64,000 bases of DNA from the human T2T-CHM13v2.0 reference genome, Homo sapiens (GCF_009914755.1 NC_060936.1), one strand, 5' to 3'; positions 1 through 34,420 are shown, counted from the first letter of the stretch. Translations and numbers: made by a program. The notes: generated by a model not told the origin, from the sequence alone.

Positions 1-59
1 TCCAGGCCCCCGTGCCACTGTGGAAGGGCCGGGACGGGCCTGCCCAATGCACTGCAGAT

Positions 60-1964
60 GCCCCGGTGCCCACTCCTCCTACCTCCCCGAGTGTGCCCAC
101 GGTGCCCGCTCCTCCCACCTCCCGAGTGTGCCCACGGTGCCCGCTCCTCCCACCTCCCGAGTGTGCCCACGGTGCCCACTCCTCCCACCTCCCCGAGTGT
201 GCCCACGGTGCCCCTCCTCCCACCTCCCGAGTGTGCCCACGGTGCCCGCTCCTCCCACCTCCCCGAGTGTGCCCACGGTGCCCGCTCCTCCCACCTCCCC
301 GAGTGTGCCCACGGTGCCCACTCCTCCCACCTCCCGAGTGTGCCCACGGTGCCCGCTCCTCCCACCTCCCGAGTGTGCCCCGGTGCCCGCTCCTCCCACC
401 TCCCCGAGTGTGCCCACGGTGCCCGCTACCTCCCACCTCCCGAGTGTGCCCACGGTGCCCACTCCTCCCACCTCTCCGAGTGTGCCCACGGTGCCCACTC
501 CTCCCACCTCCCCGAGTGTGCCCACGGTGCCCACTCCTCCCACCTCCCGAGTGTGCCCACGGTGCCCGCTCCTCCCACCTCCCGAGTGTGCCCACGGTGC
601 CCGCTCCTCCCACCTCCCGAGTATGCCCCGGTGCCCGCTCCTCCCACCTCCCGAGTGTGCCCACGGTGCCCACTCCTCCCACCTCCCCGAGTGTGCCCAC
701 GGTGCCCGCTACCTCCCACCTCCCGAGTGTGCCCACGGTGCCCGCTCCTCCCACCTCCCGAGTGTGCCCCGGTGCCCGCTCCTCCCACCTCCCGAGTGTG
801 CCCACGGTGCCCGCTACCTCCCACCTCCCCGAGTGTGCCCACGGTGCCCGCTACCTCCCACCTCCCGAGTGTGCCCACGGTGCCCGCTACCTCCCACCTC
901 CCGAGTGTGCCCACGGTGCCCACTCCTCCCACCTCCCCGAGTGTGCCCACGGTGCCCGCTCCTCCCACCTCCCGAGTGTGCCCCGGTGCCCGCTCCTCCC
1001 ACCTCCCGAGTGTGCCCACGGTGCCCGCTCCTCCCACCTCCCGAGTGTGCCCACGGTGCCCGCTCCTCCCACCTCCCCGAGTGTGCCCACGGTGCCCGCT
1101 CCTCCCACCTCCCCGAGTGTGCCCACGGTGCCCGCTCCTCCCACCTCCCCGAGTGTGCCCACGGTGCCCGCTCCTCCCACCTCCCGAGTGTGCCCCGGTG
1201 CCCGCTCCTCCCACCTCCCGAGTGTGCCCCGGTGCCCGCTCCTCCCACCTCCCGAGTGTGCCCCGGTGCCCGCTCCTCCCACCTCCCGAGTGTGCCCACG
1301 GTGCCCGCTCCTCCCACCTCCCGAGTGTGCCCCGGTGCCCGCTCCTCCCACCTCCCGAGTGTGCCCCGGTGCCCGCTCCTCCCACCTCCCGAGTGTGCCC
1401 ACGGTGCCCGCTCCTCCCACCTCCCCGAGTGTGCCCACGGTGCCCGCTCCTCCCACCTCCCGAGTGTGCCCCGGTGCCCGCTCCTCCCACCTCCCCGAGT
1501 GTGCCCACGGTGCCCGCTCCTCCCACCTCCCCGAGTGTGCCCACGGTGCCCGCTCCTCCCACCTCCCCGAGTGTGCCCACGGTGCCCGCTCCTCCCACCT
1601 CCCCGAGTGTGCCCACGGTGCCCGCTCCTCCCACCTCCCGAGTGTGCCCCGGTGCCCGCTCCTCCCACCTCCCGAGTGTGCCCCGGTGCCCGCTCCTCCC
1701 ACCTCCCCGAGTGTGCCCACGGTGCCCGCTCCTCCCACCTCCCCGAGTGTGCCCACGGTGCCCGCTCCTCCCACCTCCCGAGTGTGCCCACGGTGCCCGC
1801 TCCTCCCACCTCCCCGAGTGTGCCCACGGTGCCCGCTACCTCCCACCTCCTGAGTGTGCCCACGGTGCCCGCTCCTCCCACCTCCCGAGTGTGCCCACGG
1901 TGCCCGCTCCTCCCACCTCCCCGAGTGTGCCCACGGTGCCCGCTCCTCCCACCTCCCGAGTGTG
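60..1964. repeat. GC-rich minisatellite/VNTR, 34-36 bp unit (CGGTGCCCGCTCCTCCCACCTCC(C)CGAGTGTGCCC(A)), roughly 54 copies
   Basis: Direct tandem copies read from the sequence. The unit has essentially no stop codons in any frame, which explains the seven long ORFs here. Confidence 0.97.
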
Positions 1965-13400: not shown

Positions 13401-16400
13401 GCACTCAGGCCAGGCTCCGCAGGTGCCCCCCGCCTTTTGGAACAATGCCTTCACGCTGCTGTCTGCCGTGAGCCTGCCCCGCCGGGAGCCCACCGTCTCC
13501 AGCTTCTATGTGAAGCGGGCGGGTGAGTGTGCTGAGAGTCAGGGGCGGACAGGGCTGAGCCTTGGTCTGCCTCCCCTGCGGGTCAGGTGACCTTTGCCCT
13601 CGCTTTCCCTGCAGAGCTGTGGGACACCTGGAAGGTTGCTCACCTGAAGGTGAGTTGCTTCTGGAGAGCCGGGCACCCTCCCGGGTTTGGGGGTGTGTGT
13701 GGGGTGCATGTGAGACCCCATGGAGGCTGCCGCCTTCCTCACCAGAGGAAACTCCCAGGGTACAGGTGGCAGCTTGCACGGCCACCAGGTCACTCGAAGT
13801 GTGGGAGGTGACGAGACCTGTGAACTCGGGACCCTCCCTTGGGTCAGAGGCCACCGCCGCCTCTTGGAGTCAAGCCTCTGGTGCCACCTGTGGGCCCCGT
13901 GGGCTGTTTTGGGCGCAGCCCCCCTCTTGGCCATGGTCTTGCCAAAGCTGCTTTCTTGGCTGTTCTGAGACTCCAGCCTCGAGGGCAAGGCGTACCTGAC
14001 TTGAATGGGGACAGGAAGAAGGAAGGCAGGGTCAGAAAAGTGGAGAGCAGGCTTGTGTTGGCTCAGGCTGGGCTTCGGGGTGCCCTGGCAGCTGCTCGGG
14101 CTCTGGTCTGGGGTGGGGAGGGCGGCGAGTGCAGTCTGGACCCCGTTGCAGGAGCACAGGAGGGTTTTCCAGGCCATGTGGCTCAGCTTCCTCAAGCACA
14201 AGGTAGGGGCCAGGCCGGGGAGGGGGCGGGGGCGGCATCCGGGTCTCCCCCAGGGCGGAGGCCTCACCCCGACCCGCCGGCCCCCGCCCACCCGCCCCTC
14301 ACCCCCACCTGCCGGCCCCCGCCCAGCTGCCCCTCAGCCTCTACAAGAAGGTGCTGCTGATTGTGCATGACGCCATCCTGCCGCAGCTGGCGCAGCCCAC
14401 GCTCATGATCGACTTCCTCACCCGCGCCTGCGACCTCGGTGAGTGCCGCCGCCTCACTCATACCACACCCCTAATCCCCTCGGTGAGTGCCGCCGCCTCA
14501 CTCCTACCACACCCCTAATCCCCTCGGTGAGTGCCGCCGCCTCACTCACACCACACCCCTAATCCCCTCGGTGAGTGCCGCCGCCTCGCTCACACCACAC
14601 CCCTAATCCCCTCGGTGAGTGCCGCCGCCTCGCTCACACCACACCCCTAATCCCCTCGGTGAGTGCCGCCGCCTCGCTCACACCACACCCCTAATCCCCT
14701 CGGTGAGTGCCGCCGCCTCGCTCACACCACACCCCTAATCCCCTCGGTGAGTGCCGCCGCCTCGCTCACACCACACCCCTAATCCCCTCGGTGAGTGCCG
14801 CCGCCTCGCTCACACCACACCCCTAATCCCCTCGGTGAGTGCCGCCGCCTCGCTCACACCACACCCCTAATCCCCTCGGTGAGTGCCGCCGCCTCGCTCC
14901 TACCACACCCCTAATCCCCTCGGTGAGTGCGGCCGCCTCACTCACACCACACCCCTAATCCCCTCGGTGAGTGCGGCCGCCTCACTCACACCACACCCCT
15001 AATCCCCTCGGTGAGTGCGGCCGCCTCGCTCACACCACACCCCTAATCCCCTCGGTGAGTGCCGCCGCCTCGCTCACACCACACCCCTAATCCCCTCGGT
15101 GAGTGCCGCCGCCTCGCTCACACCACACCCCTAATCCCCTCGGTGAGTGCCGCCGCCTCGCTCACACCACACCCCTAATCCCCTCGGTGAGTGCGGCCGC
15201 CTCGCTCACACCACACCCCTAATCCCCTCGGTGAGTGCGGCCGCCTCGCTCACACCACACCCCTAATCCCCTCGGTGAGTGCGGCCGCCTCGCTCACACC
15301 ACACCCCTAATCCCCTCGGTGAGTGCGGCCGCCTCGCTCACACCACACCCCTAATCCCCTCGGTGAGTGCGGCCGCCTCGCTCACACCACACCCCTAATC
15401 CCCTCGGTGAGTGCGGCCGCCTCGCTCACACCACACCCCTAATCCCCTCGGTGAGTGCCGCCGCCTCGCTCACACCACACCCCTAATCCCCTCGGTGAGT
15501 GCGGCCGCCTCGCTCACACCACACCCCTAATCCCCTCGGTGAGTGCCGCCGCCTCGCTCACACCACACCCCTAATCCCCTCGGTGAGTGCCGCCGCCTCG
15601 CTCACACCACACCCCTAATCCCCTCGGTGAGTGCCGCCGCCTCGCTCACACCACACCCCTAATCCCCTCGGTGAGTGCCGCCGCCTCGCTCCTACCACAC
15701 CCCTAATCCCCTCGGTGAGTGCGGCCGCCTCGCTCCTACCACACCCCTAATCCCCTCGGTGAGTGCCGCCGCCTCGCTCACACCACACCCCTAATCCCCT
15801 CGGTGAGTGCCGCCGCCTCGCTCACACCACACCCCTAATCCCCTCGGTGAGTGCCGCCGCCTCGCTCACACCACACCCCTAATCCCCTCGGTGAGTGCCG
15901 CCGCCTCGCTCACACCACACCCCTAATCCCCTCGGTGAGTGCCGCCGCCTCGCTCACACCACACCCCTAATCCCCTCGGTGAGTGCCGCCGCCTCGCTCA
16001 CACCACACCCCTAATCCCCTCGGTGAGTGCCGCCGCCTCGCTCACACCACACCCCTAATCCCCTCGGTGAGTGCCGCCGCCTCGCTCACACCACACCCCT
16101 AATCCCCTCGGTGAGTGCCGCCGCCTCGCTCACACCACACCACTAATCCCCTCGGTGAGTGCCGCCGCCTCGCTCCTACCACACCCCTAATCCCCTCGGT
16201 GAGTGCGGCCGCCTCGCTCCTACCACACCCCTAATCCCCTCGGTGAGTGCGGCCGCCTCGCTCCTACCACACCCCTAATCCCCTCGGTGAGTGCGGCCGC
16301 CTCGCTCCTACCACACCCCTAATCCCCTCGGTGAGTGCGGCCGCCTCGCTCACACCACACCCCTAATCCCCTCGGTGAGTGCGGCCGCCTCGCTCACACC

Positions 16401-18697
16401 ACACCCCTAATCCCCTCGGTGAGTGCCGCCGCCTCGCTCACACCACACCCCTAATCCCCTCGGTGAGTGCGGCCGCCTCGCTCACACCACACCCCTAATC
16501 CCCTCGGTGAGTGCCGCCGCCTCACTCCTACCACACCCCTAATCCCCTCGGTGAGTGCCGCCGCCTCGCTCACACCACACCCCTAATCCCCTCGGTGAGT
16601 GCCGCCGCCTCACTCCTACCACACCCCTAATCCCCTCGGTGAGTGCCGCCGCCTCGCTCACACCACACCCCTAATCCCCTCGGTGAGTGCGGCCGCCTCG
16701 CTCATACCACACCCCTAATCCCCTCGGTGAGTGCGGCCGCCTCGCTCACACCACACCCCTAATCCCCTCGGTGAGTGCCGCCGCCTCACTCACACCACAC
16801 CCCTAATCCCCTCGGTGAGTGCCGCCGCCTCGCTCACACCACACCCCTAATCCCCTCGGTGAGTGCGGCCGCCTCACTCACACCACACCCCTAATCCCCT
16901 CGGTGAGTGCGGCCGCCTCGCTCACACCACACCCCTAATCCCCTCGGTGAGTGCCGCCGCCTCACTCACACCACACCCCTAATCCCCTCGGTGAGTGCCG
17001 CCGCCTCACTCACACCACACCCCTAATCCCCTCGGTGAGTGCGGCCGCCTCGCTCACACCCCCAACCCCCACCCCGCAGCACCTCTTCCCCGATCCCACT
17101 GCCTCCACCCCCCACTCCCCTGCCCTGCATGTGGTCTCCAGCTTTGTGTCCGTGGGGGCTGTGGGAGGGGACAGCAGGGGCAGAGGCCACACTCCACAGA
17201 CTTACACTCAGTGTGGGCAGGGGGTAGGGTGGGAGCGAGGTCACTGCAGCTCCAGCCTGTGTCTGTCTGTCCGCAGGGGGGGCCCTCAGCCTCTTGGCCT
17301 TGAACGGGCTGTTCATCTTGATTCACAAACACAACCTGTGAGTGTCACCAGGGGTGCAGGTCTTCTTCCCAGTCTGCCCAGCCCTGCTCCTCTGTCCCCT
17401 TCCCACCCTGCCCCACGGGGTCCCCGCTTTCCTCACAGGCCATGGTGTTGGAGTCCCTGGGCGGGAGGAAGGGGCGCCGAGTGAGACCCTGGCCTTGGAG
17501 GCCTCAGTTCCCGGGCCCTGCTCCATCCGTTGCTCCTTCCCCCCGGCCCGCAGGGAGTACCCTGACTTCTACCGGAAGCTCTACGGCCTCTTGGACCCCT
17601 CTGTCTTTCACGTCAAGTACCGCGCCCGCTTCTTCCACCTGGCTGACCTCTTCCTGTCCTCCTCGTGAGTACCAGGGCACCTGGCTCTGCCCTGCTCTGT
17701 GCGGCTGCAGCCTGGGGCCAGGGGAGGGTGGTGGGGGCTAGCAGTCCGGGCCCTGTCTCACAACCACTGCCCTGCCCAGCCACCTCCCCGCCTACCTGGT
17801 GGCCGCCTTCGCCAAGCGGCTGGCCCGCCTGGCCCTGACGGCTCCCCCTGAGGCCCTGCTCATGGTCCTGCCTTTCATCTGTAACCTGCTGCGCCGGCAC
17901 CCTGCCTGCCGGGTCCTCGTGCACCGTCCACACGGCCCTGGTGAGTTGCGGGGCCCTCGGAGGCTGGGCTGGAGCTGGGGCGGGGGTGCCTGGTGCTGTG
18001 GACGGCAGACAAGGGCCCACGTCTCATTCCTAGAGTTGGACGCCGACCCCTACGACCCTGGAGAGGAGGACCCAGCCCAGAGCCGGGCCTTGGAGAGCTC
18101 CCTGTGGGAGCTTCAGGTGAGGGCGCTGCTGCCACACCCTGGGGCCTCCCGAGCCATCCTTCGGCCCCTCAGAAAGCCCAGCTCCCCGTGCCACCTCCCG
18201 CATAGCCTCATGTTGCGTCCCCAGCTGGCCACCTGGGTTTGTGGGTGCTGGGTGCTTGGCCTTCTCACGTGGCTCCGTCCCGACCCCGCCCACTCTGGTT
18301 GGGAGCACAGGGAGGCCATGGCTGGGGGCACAGGGCGGGGGCCTGGGGCAGCTGCCTCTTAACGGCCCTACTGCCCCAGGCCCTCCAGCGCCACTACCAC
18401 CCTGAGGTGTCCAAAGCCGCCAGCGTCATCAACCAGGCCCTGTCCATGCCTGAGGTCAGCATCGCGCCACTGCTGGAGCTCACGGCCTACGAGGTGCGGA
18501 ACTGGGCCAGGGTGCGAGGGTCTGGGCCACGGGGCGCTGAGCCAAGCCTGAGAGCCGCCGTGCTTTGTGCTTTGCAGATCTTTGAGCGGGACCTGAAGAA
18601 GAAGGGGCCCGAGCCGGTGCCACTGGAGTTTATCCCAGCCCAGGGCCTGCTGGGACGGCCGGGTGAACTCTGTGCCCAGCACTTCACGCTCAGCTGA
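10032..18697 (+). CDS. NOC4L: Nucleolar complex protein 4 homolog NOC4L (Noc4/CBF-Mak21 family, NOP14 partner, 40S biogenesis), 15 coding exons, 516 aa
   Basis: Hand-spliced: join(10032..10148,10397..10517,11102..11208,12824..12931,13176..13325,13423..13522,13615..13649,14152..14202,14327..14438,17277..17337,17554..17664,17780..17940,18034..18116,18380..18493,18578..18697) = 1551 nt, all GT-AG, frame continuous. Starts MEREPGAAGVRR (Kozak GGCggcATGG), contains LEYPDFYRKLY, AAFAKRLARLAL and ALESSLWEL, ends AQHFTLS-TGA. Confidence 0.97.
11545..12185 (-). mobile_element. Old L1M (L1MB-like) 3' fragment in NOC4L intron 3
   Basis: Typical phrases CCAGAACATCTTTATCGCCCC, CCCCAGCCCCAGGCAGCCACT, TTTCCACCTTTTGGCTGTTACGAAC, CTCCACATCCTCGCCAACAC. 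Confidence 0.75.
12185..12423 (+). mobile_element. hAT-Charlie DNA transposon relic (MER102-like)
   Basis: Ends TGCCTGGGCCCTGAAAGCACTGAGTTTGCCACCCC and contains GATTGGCTGGAG, resembling the MER102 consensus as I recall it. Confidence 0.45.
14434..17060 (+). repeat. 44-bp VNTR in NOC4L intron 9, ~60 units, each containing the exon 9 donor CTCG|GTGAGT
   Basis: Unit CCTCGGTGAGTGCCGCCGCCTCGCTCACACCACACCCCTAATCC. The GT falls at 14439, 14483, 14527 ... 15671 ... 16331 ... 17035; (17035-14439)/44 = 59 exactly. Confidence 0.98.
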
Positions 18698-18752
18698 CCC
18701 TGGCCCACCTGTGAATAAATCTCAGCTGACCCCAGCCCACCTGTGAATAAAT
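18689..18752 (+). repeat. 32-bp tandem duplication of the NOC4L stop codon plus poly(A) signal
   Basis: CTCAGCTGACCCTGGCCCACCTGTGAATAAAT followed by CTCAGCTGACCCCAGCCCACCTGTGAATAAAT (2 mismatches). Confidence 0.95.
18714..18751 (+). terminator. NOC4L tandem poly(A) signals (AATAAA at 18714-18719 and 18746-18751)
   Basis: Two AATAAA hexamers 16 and 48 nt after the TGA, inside a 32-bp tandem duplication, followed by TGTTTTT. Confidence 0.9.
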
Positions 18753-19049
18753 GTTTTTGCAGGAGAAAGGCTCAGGGAGTGTGGACTGGGGCGGCTGGAT
18801 GCCTCTGCCAGGCCGAGGGCCTCACATCTGCCTGAGCCCACCAGGCACATGGCAAAGCGAGGCCCCTGCCGACTCCACAGCCTGGGAGGGGATGGTGGGG
18901 AACCTGAGGCGTGGTCTTTCCCAGGGCCTCCGGCCCACCAGTGTCACCGGTCACCCAGCCTCCCTCATCCCCTGGCCCCAGTGACCTCCCTGTTGGCAGA
19001 GCTCGGGGCCTCTGCTGAGGTTACACTCCAGACACCTGGGAGGGAGCAG

Positions 19050-21987: not shown

Positions 21988-24900
21988 TGACACACACCGC
22001 TACATACACACCACTACACACACTAGATACACCACTACACACACCACTACACACACTACACACACCACTACACACACACACCACTACACACACTACACCA
22101 CTACACACACCACTACACACACTACACGCACACAGTACACACACCACTACACACACTACACGCACACAGTACACACACCACTACACACACTACACACACC
22201 ACTACACACACACACCACTACACACACTAGATACACCACTACACACACCACTACACGCACACAGTACACACACCACTACACACACTACACACACCACTAC
22301 ACACACACTACACACACACCACTACACGCACACACTACACACACCACTACACACACACTACATACACCACTACACACACCACTACACATACTACACACAC
22401 AGTACACACACCACTACACACTACATACAAACCACTACACACACTACACACACACACCACTACACGCACACTACACACACCACTACATACACCACTACAC
22501 ACACCACTACACACACCACTACACACACACTACATACAAACCACTACACACACCACTACACACACACTACATACCACTACACACACCACTACACACACTA
22601 CACGCACACACTACACACACCACTACACACACACACTGCATACACCACTACACACACACCGCTACACACTACACGCACACAGTACACACACCACTACACA
22701 CACACTACATACAAACCACTACACGCACACTACACACACCACACACACACCACACACACCATTACACACACTACACCACACACCACTACACACACACCAC
22801 TGCATACACACTACATACACCACTACACACACTACACACACACTACACACACTACACACACAACCACTACACACACACTACACGCACACACTACACACAC
22901 AACCACTACACGTACCACTACACACACTACACACAACCACTACACACACCACTACACACACACCACTACATACACCACTACACACACCACTACACACACC
23001 ACTACACACACTACACGCACAGTACACACACTACACACACAACATACAAACCACTACACACACTACACGCACAGTACACACACTACACACACAACATACA
23101 AACCACTACACACACTACACACACCACTACACACACACTACACACACCACTACACGCACACACTACACACACTACACACACACTACACACCACTGCATAC
23201 ACACCACTGCATACACCACTACACACTACACACACACCACTACACACTACACACACACAACACACAACCACTATACACACACTACACACACCACTACACG
23301 CACACACTACACACACTACACACACAACCACTACACACACCACTACACGCCACTACACACTACACACACCACTACACTACACACAACACACAACCACTAC
23401 ACACACACTACACACACCACTACACGCACACACTACACACACCACTACACACACTACACACAACCACTACACACACCACTACACACGCACCACTACACAC
23501 TACACACACACCACTACACACACACCATTACACACTACACACACCACTATGCACACACATACACACCACTACACACACATTACGCTACACACACACTACA
23601 CACACCACTACAGGCACACACTACACCACTACACACACACTACACACATTACACACACTACACACTCCACTATGCACACACTACACATACACCACTACAC
23701 ACACACACTACACACACCACTACACGCACACATTACACACACCACTACACACACACAGCATTACACACACTACACACACCACTACACGCACACACCATTA
23801 CACACACACTACACACACCACTGCACACACTACACATACACACCACTACACACACCATTACACACACACTACAAACACCACTACACACACACTACACACA
23901 CACCACTACACTACACACACCACTATGCACACTACATACACACACCACTACTCACACACCATTACACACACACTACACACACCACTATGCACACACTACA
24001 CATACACACCACTACACACACACCATTACACACACACTACACACACCACTACACACCACTACACACACACCATTACACACACACTACACACACCACTACA
24101 CACCACTATGCACACACTACACACACACCATTACACACACTACACACACCACTACACACTACACACACACACCACTATGCACACACTACACATACACACC
24201 ACTACACACACCATTACACACACACTACACACACCACTACACACCACTACACACACATTACACTACACACACCACTACACACTACACACACACCACTATG
24301 TACACACTACACATACACACCACTACACACACCATTAGACACCACTACACACACACTACACACCACTACACACTACACACACACCACTATGCACACACTA
24401 CACATAGCACTACACACACACCATTACACACACACTACACACACTACACACTACACACACACCACTACACACTACACACACCACTATGCACACACTACAC
24501 ATACACGCCACTACACACACCACTACACACACGCAACACACACCACTATGCACACACCACTACACACACACTACACACACCACTACACACACTACACACA
24601 CACCACTATGCACACTACACATACACACCACTACACACACACATTACACTACACACACCACTACACATCACTACACCCACACCATTACACACACACTACA
24701 CACACACTACACACACACTATGCACACTACACATACATACCACTACACGCACACACCATTACACACACACTACGCACACGACTACACACACTACACACAC
24801 ACCACTACACACACTACACACATCACTATGCACACACTATACATACAGACCACTACACACTACACACACACACCACACACACACACCACTATGCACACAC

Positions 24901-25100
24901 TACACATACACACCACTACACACACACCATTACACACACACTACACACACCACTACACACACACTACACACACACACACCACTACACGCACACCACTACA
25001 TACACCACTACGTACACACACCACTATATGCACACACCACTACACGCACACACCACTACACACACACACCACTACATGCGCACACACACACGCGCACACG
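21988..25100. repeat. ~3.1 kb degenerate (CA)n/(CACTA)n simple repeat
   Basis: CACACTACACACACCACTA-type units, nearly G-free on the plus strand; source of the His/Thr/Tyr-rich ORFs. Confidence 0.97.
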
Positions 25101-32679: not shown

Positions 32680-34272
32680 ACCTACCCATCCATCCATTCA
32701 TTCACCCATCCATGCATCCATCATCCAGCCACCCACCCACCCATCCATTATCCATCCAGCCACCATTCATCCACTCATCCATCCATCCACCCATCACCCA
32801 CCCATCCATCCATCATCCATCCACCCAGCCATCCGTCATACATTCATTCATCCATCCATCACCCATTCATCCATCCATCCACCCATCAATCCATCCACCC
32901 ACCCATCCTTCATCCACCCAGCCATCCATCATACATTCTTCCATCTATTCATCCATCCACCCATCCATCCATCCAGCCAGCCAGCCATCCATACATCCAC
33001 CCACCCACCCACCCATCATCCATCCATCCATCATCCATCCACCCAGCCATCCATCCACCCACCCATCCCTCATCCACCCAGCCATCCATCATACATTCAT
33101 TCATCCATCCATCCATCCAGCCATCCATACATCCACCCACCCACCCACCCATCATCCATCCATCCACCCACCCACCCATCATCCATCCATCCACCCACCC
33201 ACCCATTATCCATCCATCCATCCACCCATCCATCCATCCAGCCATCCATCCATCCACCCATCCATCATACATTCATTCATCCATCCGTCCATCACCCATT
33301 CATCCATCCAGCCATCACCCACCCATCCATCCATTCACCCACCCATCCATCATCCATCCACCCAGCCATCCATCATACATTCATTCATCCATCCATCCAC
33401 CCATCCACCCATCCATCCATCCATCCACCCACCCATCCATTCATCCATCCGTCCATCATCCATCATACATTCATTCATCCATCCATCACCCATTCATCCA
33501 GCCATCACCCAGCCATCCATCCAACCATCCGTCCATCATCCATCCACCCAGACATCCATCATACATTGATTCATCCATCCATCCATCCATCCATCCATCA
33601 TCCATCCACCCAGCGATCCATCATACATTCATTCATCCATCCATCCATCCATCACCCATTCATCCATCCATCCAGCCATCACCCACCCATCCATCCATTC
33701 ACCCATCCATCCATCCACCCACCCATCCATCATACATTCATCCATCCATCCATTCACCCATCCATCCATCCACCCACCCATCCATCATCCACCCAGCCAT
33801 CCATCCATCATACATTCATTCATCCATCCATCCATCCCTTCCATCCATTCACCCATCCATCCATCCACCCACCCATCCATCATCCATCCGTCCATCCACC
33901 CAGCCATCCATCCATTCACCCATCCATCCATCCACCCATCCATCCATCCACCCACCCATCCACCCATCCATCCATCATCCACCTACCCATCCATCATCCA
34001 TCACCCACCCATCCATCCATTCACCCATCCATCCATTATCCATTCACCCAGCCATCCATCATACATTCATTCATCCTTCCATCCACCCATCACCCACCCA
34101 TCCATCCATTTACCTATCCATCCATCCACCCCCCCATCCATCATCCATCCACCCACCCATCCCTTATCCATCCATTCATCCACCCAGCCGTCCATCCATC
34201 ATACATTCATTCATCCATCCATCCATCCATCCATCCATCACCCATTCACCCATCCATCCACTCATCATCCAT
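32680..34272. repeat. ~1.6 kb degenerate (TCCA)n/(TGGA)n repeat
   Basis: CCATCCATCCACCCA units; source of the His/Pro/Ser/Ile ORFs. Confidence 0.97.
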
Positions 34273-34420
34273 CTGCGCCATCCCTTGGTGGTGAAGTGCA
34301 GTCTCCCTGTGGTTTGAGTGGTTCTCTCTGATGGCTGGTGAGGCGGAACCTCGTTTCTGCCTGTGCGTGCTGAGGCTGTTGGGCACAGCCATGCATTGTT
34401 TGCAGGTGTGTCTGGGGACT
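34273..34420 (-). mobile_element. Old L1M fragment (right part of the split element)
   Basis: GCCATCC...GTGAAGTGCAGTCTCCCTGTGGTTTGA...TCTCTGATGGCTGGTGAGGCGGAAC continues the L1 phrasing interrupted at ~30800. Confidence 0.55.

What the first reader, a model, noticed from the sequence alone, without database searches (positions are those of the whole stretch)
14434..17276. NOC4L intron 9 is an array of 60 identical 5' splice sites, and only the first can be productive
Seen: the 44-bp VNTR unit begins inside exon 9 and copies the true donor CTCG|GTGAGT. GT recurs every 44 nt from 14439 to 17035 (59 periods, no net indels). Donor 2 adds 44 nt (frameshift). Donors 3-60 all include the in-frame TAA at 14516-14518. 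The last donor leaves a 242-nt intron, similar to the many short introns of this gene. Known: GTGAGT is a consensus U1 site, short GC-rich introns are often recognised by intron definition, and premature stops trigger NMD. Inference: exon definition (donor 1) competes with intron definition (donor 60) and 58 decoys, so copy number could tune the dose of an essential 40S biogenesis factor or retain the pre-mRNA via U1. I do not know whether this has been described.
Basis: partly seen in the sequence, partly recalled or inferred. Interest (0 to 1): 0.85.

Follow-up and report, generated by a model that had tools for sequence, protein, structure and literature searches.

The report
Minisatellite repeating NOC4L exon 9 donor
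A variable 44-base tandem repeat starts inside NOC4L exon 9 and copies its splice donor 60 times, which is a real but already known kind of arrangement (seen in F7, CBS, IFI6 and ABCA7) in which cells normally use the first copy.

Summary
A 44-bp array (14434-17060, 59.7 copies, no indels) starts 5 nt inside exon 9. It places TCG|GTGAGT 60 times at exact 44-nt spacing. Only donor 1 keeps the 516-aa frame: donor 2 frameshifts, and donors 3-60 read the TAA at 14516.

It is not a new kind of thing. This VNTR is a showcase example in Garg et al.: 43 copies in hg38, more than 10-fold copy-number range, associated with NOC4L expression independently of the lead SNV. Minisatellites that reiterate a donor are documented for IFI6, CBS, LMNB2, PDGF, F7 and ABCA7. 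In F7 only the first site is used. In ABCA7 the second-donor isoform is about 2% and independent of length, while downstream-exon skipping rises with length.

I found no paper noting that the NOC4L unit carries the donor.

The most likely reading is that donor 1 is chosen by position, the others are silent or leak slightly into NMD, and any dose effect works through array length or DNA.

A published rule for strong sites predicts exactly that.

Verdict: new member of a known kind, moderate interest.

The parts
14327..14438 (+). NOC4L exon 9 (112 nt, ends in codon phase 1). Its last 5 nt (CCTCG, 14434-14438) are the first 5 nt of the repeat.
   Evidence: Hub annotation; CDS rebuilt and translated to 516 aa; TRF start at 14434.
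14434..17060 (+). 44-bp minisatellite with 59.7 copies and no indels. C-rich on the sense strand (C 0.49, G 0.19), GC 0.68, 229 CpG with o/e 0.95. There are 10 unit variants among the 59 full units, and 5 of 44 columns vary.
   Evidence: Locus-specific: 59 of 59 genome matches lie here, with none on the reverse strand.
14436..14444 (+). Authentic exon 9 donor TCG|GTGAGT (cut after 14438). It matches 7 of 9 consensus positions, including all of -1 to +6.
   Evidence: hub annotation. All listed exons of other transcripts here also end at 14438.
14480..17040 (+). 59 pseudo-donors TCG|GTGAGT, with GT at 14483 + 44k up to 17035. They are identical to the authentic site from -5 to +8.
14516..14518 (+). 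TAA in the frame of exon 9. It terminates every transcript that uses donors 3-60 or retains the intron.
17061..17276 (+). Unique 3' part of intron 9. It holds all 8 G-runs of the intron (17154-17233), the pyrimidine tract and the only acceptor (CGCAG|GG). With donor 60 it would form a 242-nt intron.
   Evidence: The only AG dinucleotides inside the array are those within GTGAGT (60 of 60), so there is no internal acceptor.
17277..17337 (+). NOC4L exon 10 (61 nt) with donor CCT|GTGAGT (7 of 9). Skipping it, exon 9, or both shifts the frame.

Best explanation
**What it is.** This is a polymorphic, locus-specific, GC-rich subtelomeric minisatellite. It grew out of the exon 9/intron 9 junction of NOC4L, so intron 9 begins with 60 identical copies of the 5' splice site.

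**How the donor is chosen (inferred from F7).** The spliceosome uses the first copy because of its position. It is the first donor downstream of the exon 9 acceptor, which is exon definition, or 'oriented scanning' in the F7 work.

**What the other 59 do (inferred).** They are functional in sequence but silent, or they leak at a few per cent. By analogy with IFI6, CBS and ABCA7, the leak would be mainly at donor 2. Every such product carries a premature stop and should be removed by NMD.

**The published link between copy number and NOC4L expression.** It is real as an association. By analogy with ABCA7 it more probably acts through array length than through the number of decoy donors. Possible routes are a longer intron, skipping of the 61-nt exon 10, intron retention, or the CpG-dense DNA.

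**Shown versus inferred.** The anatomy, the frame consequences, locus-specificity and polymorphism are shown. The choice rule, the leak level and the route of the dose effect are inferred.
For: - **Anatomy and frames:**
- **Annotation:** the hub table lists 9 RefSeq transcripts, and all alternative exon 9 forms end at 14438.
- **Locus-specific:**
- **Polymorphic and an eVNTR:** 43 copies in hg38 against 59.7 here, a more than 10-fold range in GTEx, and an association with NOC4L expression that persists after stratifying on rs11543305.
- **Class precedents:** the F7 37-bp minisatellite has 5-9 identical donors and only the first is used, although the pseudo-sites are functional when the first is mutated. 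IFI6 and CBS use the first plus two more. LMNB2 and PDGF use only the first.
- **ABCA7:** the VNTR includes the exon 18 donor. The one-unit isoform is 2 +/- 1% and independent of length. Exon 19 skipping rises with length and expression falls.
- **No local RNA structure singles out donor 1:** mean unpaired probability is 0.32 for donor 1 and 0.29-0.33 for donors 2-21. This leaves position as the discriminator, as in F7.
- **No sign of selection on the decoys:** 5 of 44 columns vary and none lies in the 9-mer. That has a chance of about 0.30 (my arithmetic).
Against: - The NOC4L sites are stronger than the F7 sites: GTGAGT with 7 of 9 consensus matches against UGG/gugggu. The F7 paper itself found that pseudo-sites with a perfect consensus do shift splicing.
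[quoted passage not shown] Applied here, that predicts donor 60.
- The gene has mostly short introns. Ten of the other 13 are 263 nt or less, and all are GC-rich, at 0.52-0.85. All G-runs of intron 9 sit in the 242-nt stretch that donor 60 would define.
- NMD would hide the products, so the annotation is a weak witness.
- I could not see the direction of the expression association. It is given only in a figure, and the journal version is not held.
- No RNA data could be examined here.
Confidence: 0.7

Rival explanations
1. **Decoy competition.** U1 binds all 60 sites. The last donor is paired with the acceptor across a 242-nt intron by intron definition, and other decoys are also used. A copy-number-dependent share of pre-mRNA then becomes NMD substrate or is retained, and this sets NOC4L dose.
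For: - All 60 sites are identical from -5 to +8, with a consensus intronic half.
- The 44-nt spacing sits at the roughly 45-nt threshold above which strong two-site constructs splice almost only from the intron-proximal site.
- The gene has short GC-rich introns, and the G-runs lie in the last 216 nt.
- An expression association with copy number exists.
Against: - F7: identical pseudo-sites never compete with the first.
- ABCA7: second-donor use is about 2% and independent of length, with or without cycloheximide.
- LMNB2 and PDGF use only the first site.
- No annotated NOC4L transcript uses a repeat donor (hub table).
- The direction of the association is unknown to me.
Confidence: 0.12
2. 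**Length or DNA-level effect.** The donors are bystanders for dose. Under this rival the array changes NOC4L output in one of two ways. It lengthens an intron in a gene of short introns, causing exon 10 or exon 9 skipping or retention, all of which shift the frame. Or it acts as a 2.6-kb CpG-dense block, through methylation, chromatin or elongation. This is compatible with the best explanation on donor choice and competes only over the cause of the association.
For: - ABCA7: downstream-exon skipping rises and expression falls with length, while pseudo-donor use does not change.
- F7: exon skipping grows as the first usable donor lies further away.
- The array has 229 CpG with o/e 0.95, against 0.56 for the gene.
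- The Garg study reports many VNTRs tied to local methylation as well as expression.
- Exon 10 is 61 nt with a 7-of-9 donor, and skipping exon 9, exon 10 or both shifts the frame.
Against: - No NOC4L-specific splicing or methylation data were available to me.
- No exon-skipping transcript appears in the hub table.
Confidence: 0.35
3. **No causal effect.** The array is a neutral passenger. The reported association comes from linkage with other variants or from read-depth and mapping effects.
For: - The region is packed with other minisatellites (58 TRF rows at score 100 or more).
- A different VNTR about 85 kb away is also listed with NOC4L expression in another study's supplement.
- Copy number was inferred from read depth.
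Against: - The association persists after stratifying on the lead SNV.
- Read-depth estimates correlated with long-read genotypes at R2 = 0.81 across eVNTR loci.
Confidence: 0.15

Closest known systems
F7 intron 7 37-bp minisatellite (Borensztajn et al. 2006, PMC1557585; abstract, passages and discussion read)
   Same: The first unit spans the exon/intron border (4 nt of exon there, 5 nt here). The authentic donor is followed by identical pseudo-donors. Copy number is polymorphic. Only the most upstream site appears in normal mRNA.
   Different: F7 has 5-9 copies against 60 here. The F7 donor UGG/gugggu is weaker than TCG/GTGAGT. The F7 array spans a few hundred nt, so the last donor is never 2.6 kb from the first. 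The splice choice was shown experimentally for F7 and not for NOC4L.
ABCA7 intron 18 25-bp VNTR (De Roeck et al. 2018, PMC5954066; abstract, passages and section 21 read)
   Same: A large C-rich intronic VNTR that includes the exon's donor, in a GC-rich gene. Arrays run to kilobases. Use of the next donor gives a frameshift and NMD. Length correlates with expression. In the window's own genome it has 88.6 units and 71 GTGAG sites.
   Different: The ABCA7 units are heterogeneous: six 9-mer variants, 4% indels and 90% matches, with CpG o/e 0.34. NOC4L has 60 of 60 identical sites, 0% indels and CpG o/e 0.95. The ABCA7 donor has T at -1 and mostly C at +6. Disease association and splicing data exist for ABCA7 only.
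CBS 31-bp VNTR at exon 13/intron 13, and the IFI6 (6-16) minisatellite
   Same: The repeat spans the exon/intron border. CBS is named c.1444_1467+7(16_21). IFI6 has 25 pseudo-sites. The donor is reiterated.
   Different: [quoted passage not shown] I saw these only as cited in PMC1557585 and PMC2630376. The original papers are not held.
eVNTRs of Garg et al. (bioRxiv 10.1101/2020.12.16.423078; passages read)
   Same: It is this very locus: a 44-mer with 43 copies in hg38, intronic in NOC4L, with a more than 10-fold range, associated with NOC4L expression.
   Different: The passages I read call it simply 'intronic'. The paper's single use of a 'splic' word concerns ABCA7. There is no mention that the unit carries the exon 9 donor.

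Membership tests
Minisatellite whose first unit spans an exon-intron border and reiterates the 5' splice site (F7, CBS, IFI6, LMNB2, PDGF, ABCA7) | Head-to-tail array of a 10-100 bp unit | tested here: met
   Period 44, 59.7 copies, 97% matches, 0% indels.
Minisatellite whose first unit spans an exon-intron border and reiterates the 5' splice site (F7, CBS, IFI6, LMNB2, PDGF, ABCA7) | First unit contains the annotated exon/intron junction | tested here: met
   The array starts at 14434 and the exon ends at 14438 (hub table).
Minisatellite whose first unit spans an exon-intron border and reiterates the 5' splice site (F7, CBS, IFI6, LMNB2, PDGF, ABCA7) | Donor sequence repeated unchanged in the following units | tested here: met
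   TCG|GTGAGT in 60 of 60 units, identical from -5 to +8.
Minisatellite whose first unit spans an exon-intron border and reiterates the 5' splice site (F7, CBS, IFI6, LMNB2, PDGF, ABCA7) | Copy number polymorphic in the population | tested here: met
   59.7 copies in this assembly, against 43 in hg38 and a more than 10-fold range in GTEx according to the paper. The population part rests on the paper, not on my own genotyping.
Minisatellite whose first unit spans an exon-intron border and reiterates the 5' splice site (F7, CBS, IFI6, LMNB2, PDGF, ABCA7) | mRNA made from the most upstream donor, at most the next one or two | not testable with these tools
   Only indirect evidence. All exon 9 forms in the hub's RefSeq table end at 14438, and only donor 1 keeps the ORF. 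No RNA data are available here.
eVNTR (VNTR whose copy number is associated with expression of a nearby gene) | Significant association of copy number with expression, independent of the lead SNV | not tested
   Reported for this locus in the Garg et al. preprint. The direction and tissues were not visible to me, because bioRxiv supplements are closed and the journal version is not held.
CpG island by sequence criteria (length over 200 bp, GC over 0.5, o/e over 0.6; criteria recalled) | Composition thresholds | tested here: met
   2627 bp, GC 0.68, 229 CpG, o/e 0.95. Methylation state is unknown.

The most novel reading that the evidence does not exclude
In this short-intron, GC-rich gene the intron-proximal donor 60 is used at an appreciable rate, and perhaps other decoys too. 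It would form a 242-nt G-run-rich intron, as the rule for strong competing sites predicts. NMD erases the products, so allele length or donor number quantitatively sets the dose of an essential small-subunit biogenesis factor and explains the published eVNTR. The more than 10-fold natural allelic series would then be an in vivo test between the 'first site wins' and 'intron-proximal site wins' rules.
Probability: 0.12. Interest if true: 0.6.

Novelty: new member of a known kind. Interest (0 to 1): 0.35.

Why it matters
- **A concrete hypothesis for a published association.** The NOC4L eVNTR was reported without a mechanism. This anatomy gives a cheaply testable one.
- **An unusually clean locus.** It has 60 exact, strong donors at exact spacing, a single acceptor, and no internal AG other than the one inside GTGAGT.
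- **Two published rules disagree here.** The F7 rule says the first site is used. [quoted passage not shown] A natural 10-fold allelic series could settle which one holds in vivo.
- **Caveat.** The same test is available at ABCA7 and other known loci. On precedent, the most likely outcome is that the first donor wins and the leak is small.

Tried and rejected
- **RNA structure masking the decoys: rejected.** Donor accessibility is the same for donor 1 and donors 2-21. The 281-nt fold is only modestly structured, z = -2.85.
- **Selection keeping the decoy donors intact: no support.** Five variable columns missing a 9-nt target has a chance of about 0.30.
- **Internal acceptors or cryptic exons within the array: rejected.** The only AGs are inside GTGAGT.
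- **U1 protection against premature polyadenylation: no substrate.** There is no AATAAA or ATTAAA in intron 9.
- **Coding or structured-RNA content of the array: none.** No stop-free frame longer than 43 aa lies wholly inside the array on either strand. No Rfam family reaches its gathering score.
- **Dispersed repeat family: rejected.** All 59 genome matches lie at this locus. The tool warns that repeat counts are lower bounds.
- **PRDM9-like 13-mer (motif recalled):** 0 matches on either strand.
- **Direction of the eVNTR effect: not obtained.** The journal version was not held under its DOI or its PMC id, and preprint supplements are closed.
- **Other VNTR-expression catalogues do not cover the 44-mer:**
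  - Bakhtiari's target list holds only the neighbouring 35-bp and 32-bp repeats.
  - Eslami Rasekh's supplement has no NOC4L entry.
  - Lu 2023 lists NOC4L only with another VNTR, and one of its supplementary files was not searchable.
  - Hamanaka's splicing-TR catalogue excludes motifs above 20 bp.
- **Primate orthologues: not possible.** No primate genomes are available in these tools.
Full report

Yes. Tandem Repeats Finder reports a single array at 14434-17060 with period 44, 59.7 copies, 97% matches and no indels.

A scan of 14300-17400 finds 61 GTGAGT. Sixty lie at 14439, 14483 ... 17035, with all 59 gaps equal to 44. The 61st is the ordinary donor of exon 10 at 17338.

The splice-site 9-mer TCG|GTGAGT is the same in 60 of 60 copies, and identity runs from -5 to +8. 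At -6 the exon has A and the units have C. At +9 the units have C or G.

The array therefore starts 5 nt inside exon 9, which ends at 14438 in the hub's RefSeq table.

**2. Frame consequences**

Joining the annotated coding parts gives an intact 516-codon frame. The part up to exon 9 is 901 nt, so the exon ends in phase 1.

| Splice choice | Result |
|---|---|
| Donor 1 | 516 aa, productive |
| Donor 2 | adds 44 nt, stop 24 nt into exon 10 |
| Donors 3, 4, 5, 10, 30, 60 | stop at TAA 14516-14518 |
| Full intron retention | stop at TAA 14516-14518 |

I translated six of the 58 later donors. All of them must behave alike, because each includes that codon in the same frame.

Skipping exon 9 (112 nt), exon 10 (61 nt) or both also shifts the frame. 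Donor 60 would leave a 242-nt intron.

That such stops trigger NMD follows from the usual rule of about 50 nt upstream of the last exon junction, which I recall rather than tested.

**3. What the array is**

- It is locus-specific. A search of the window's whole genome with the unit, allowing up to 3 mismatches, gives 59 matches. All lie here on the + strand, with none on the reverse strand. The tool warns that counts for repeats are lower bounds.
- Five of 44 columns vary (+9, +18, +22, +23, +32), and the 59 full units fall into 10 types.
- Identical neighbours form runs of up to 8, as expected from local unequal exchange.
- The five variable columns all miss the 9-nt donor, which has a chance of about 0.30. 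There is no sign that the decoys are kept by selection.
- The sense strand is C-rich (C 0.49, G 0.19).
- The array holds 229 CpG with o/e 0.95, against 0.56 for the gene. By the usual sequence criteria (recalled) it is a 2.6-kb CpG island inside a gene body.
- It has no polyadenylation hexamer.
- It has no AG other than the one inside each GTGAGT.
- It has no open frame above 43 aa wholly inside it on either strand.
- It has no Rfam match.
- All 8 G-runs of the intron lie in its unique last 216 nt.
- The window as a whole is minisatellite-rich, with 58 TRF rows at score 100 or more. That fits its position about 1 Mb from the end of chromosome 12.

**4. What is in print about this locus**

Searches for NOC4L with VNTR, with tandem repeat and splicing, and with human-specific and tandem repeat return one relevant paper, the preprint of Garg et al. 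I read passages only. It uses this very repeat as its example.

- It describes a 44-mer with 43 copies in hg38, 'intronic within NOC4L'.
- Copy number differs more than 10-fold among GTEx donors.
- The sign of the effect is only in a figure.
- The paper's one 'splic' word refers to ABCA7.
- The journal version is not held.

Other catalogues do not cover the 44-mer.

So the VNTR, its polymorphism and its link to dose are known. I did not find in print the fact that its unit carries the exon 9 donor.

**5. What is in print about the kind**

Borensztajn et al. [quoted passage not shown] I read the abstract, passages and discussion. The cases they list:

| Gene | Array | Donor use reported |
|---|---|---|
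| IFI6 | 25 pseudo-sites | first plus two more |
| CBS | 15-20 repeats | first plus two more |
| LMNB2 | 100-bp unit | first only |
| PDGF | 81-bp unit | first only |
| F7 | 37-bp unit, 5-9 copies | first only |

With 50 F7 constructs they showed three things.
- The pseudo-sites are functional but never compete with the most upstream site.
- Only pseudo-sites with a perfect consensus shift the choice.
- Exon skipping appears when the first usable site lies further away.

The CBS repeat's name, c.1444_1467+7(16_21), confirms that it spans the junction.

De Roeck et al. 2018 describe the ABCA7 25-bp VNTR that includes the exon 18 donor. I read the abstract, passages and section 21.
- A one-unit-retention isoform exists at 2 +/- 1%.
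- It is an NMD target and does not depend on VNTR length.
- Skipping of the downstream exon 19 rises strongly with length, and expression falls.

In the window's own genome I located that array with the paper's primers. It has 88.6 units and 71 GTGAG sites in six 9-mer variants, with 4% indels. NOC4L's 60 sites are therefore not a record, but they are far more uniform and closer to consensus.

**6. How it most likely works**

Local RNA structure does not distinguish donor 1. The mean unpaired probability is 0.32, against 0.29-0.33 for donors 2-21. The F7 authors found the same for their case.

What distinguishes donor 1 is position and what lies upstream of -5. That is real exon sequence, including a purine-rich ACAAGAAGG at 14343-14351, rather than a C-rich unit. 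An enhancer role for such stretches is recalled, not tested.

I therefore take the first donor to be fixed by exon definition across the 112-nt exon 9, the 'oriented scanning' of the F7 work. The other 59 would be silent or leak at a few per cent, chiefly at donor 2.

By the ABCA7 precedent, the expression association is more likely a length or DNA effect than a count-of-decoys effect.

**7. What speaks against this**

- The NOC4L sites are stronger than the F7 sites. The intronic half is the consensus GTGAGT, with 7 of 9 matches overall.
- By my recollection of the U1 5' end, -1 to +6 can pair continuously.
- Hodson et al. 2012 (passages read) report the opposite outcome. When two sites have high U1 complementarity and are both occupied, splicing is almost wholly from the intron-proximal site once they are 45 nt or more apart. 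The spacing here is 44 nt.
- The gene is of the short-intron, GC-rich type. Ten of its other 13 introns are 263 nt or less.
- The last donor would restore such an intron, with all the G-runs in it.
- NMD would remove the evidence, and short reads cannot place a junction among donors 3-60.

I give it about 0.12.

**8. Verdict**

- It is a new member of a known kind at a locus whose VNTR and expression association are already published.
- Its value is as a clean natural test case, and as a mechanistic hypothesis for a reported eVNTR.
- Nothing here could examine RNA, methylation or other primates.

Noticed in passing
window 14262-14336: A 35-bp repeat (2.1 copies, 90% matches) spans the intron 8/exon 9 acceptor. 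The second copy carries the real CCCAG|CT, and the first has CCCACC with no AG. Exon 9 is thus flanked on both sides by tandem repeats that overlap its splice sites. The repeat is in the VNTR target table of Bakhtiari et al. under NOC4L.
   Followed up: partly
window 18689-18752: A 32-bp tandem duplication (2.0 copies, 93%) covers the last codons, the TGA stop (18695-18697) and the AATAAA of NOC4L. The gene therefore has two AATAAA signals (18714-18719 and 18746-18751), and the annotated 3' end at 18764 follows the second. It is also in the Bakhtiari target table.
   Followed up: partly
window 59-1964: A large 36-bp minisatellite (54.1 copies, 96% matches) with a 283-bp higher-order period lies just beyond the 3' end of DDX51 (2137).
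   Followed up: no
window 21990-25099 and 32686-34273: Kilobase-scale complex AC-rich and CCAT-rich arrays. Overall the window gives 58 TRF rows at score 100 or more, typical of a subtelomeric region.
   Followed up: no
L010 703-2969 (G000 contig 19, ABCA7 intron 18): In the same genome the ABCA7 VNTR has 88.6 units of 25 bp, with 71 GTGAG sites in six 9-mer variants, 4% indels and CpG o/e 0.34. It is larger but far less uniform than the NOC4L array.
   Followed up: yes
window 14434-17060: The hub's list of the longest masked repeats does not include this 2.6-kb array, although it would be the longest in the window. It may be unmasked in NCBI's file. The window file held here is all upper case, so I could not check this.
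   Followed up: partly
window 14434-17060, minus strand: Each unit carries CCCTAA (58 copies), which reads as the telomere-like hexamer TTAGGG on the other strand. They are single hexamers 44 nt apart, not tandem telomeric repeats.
   Followed up: no
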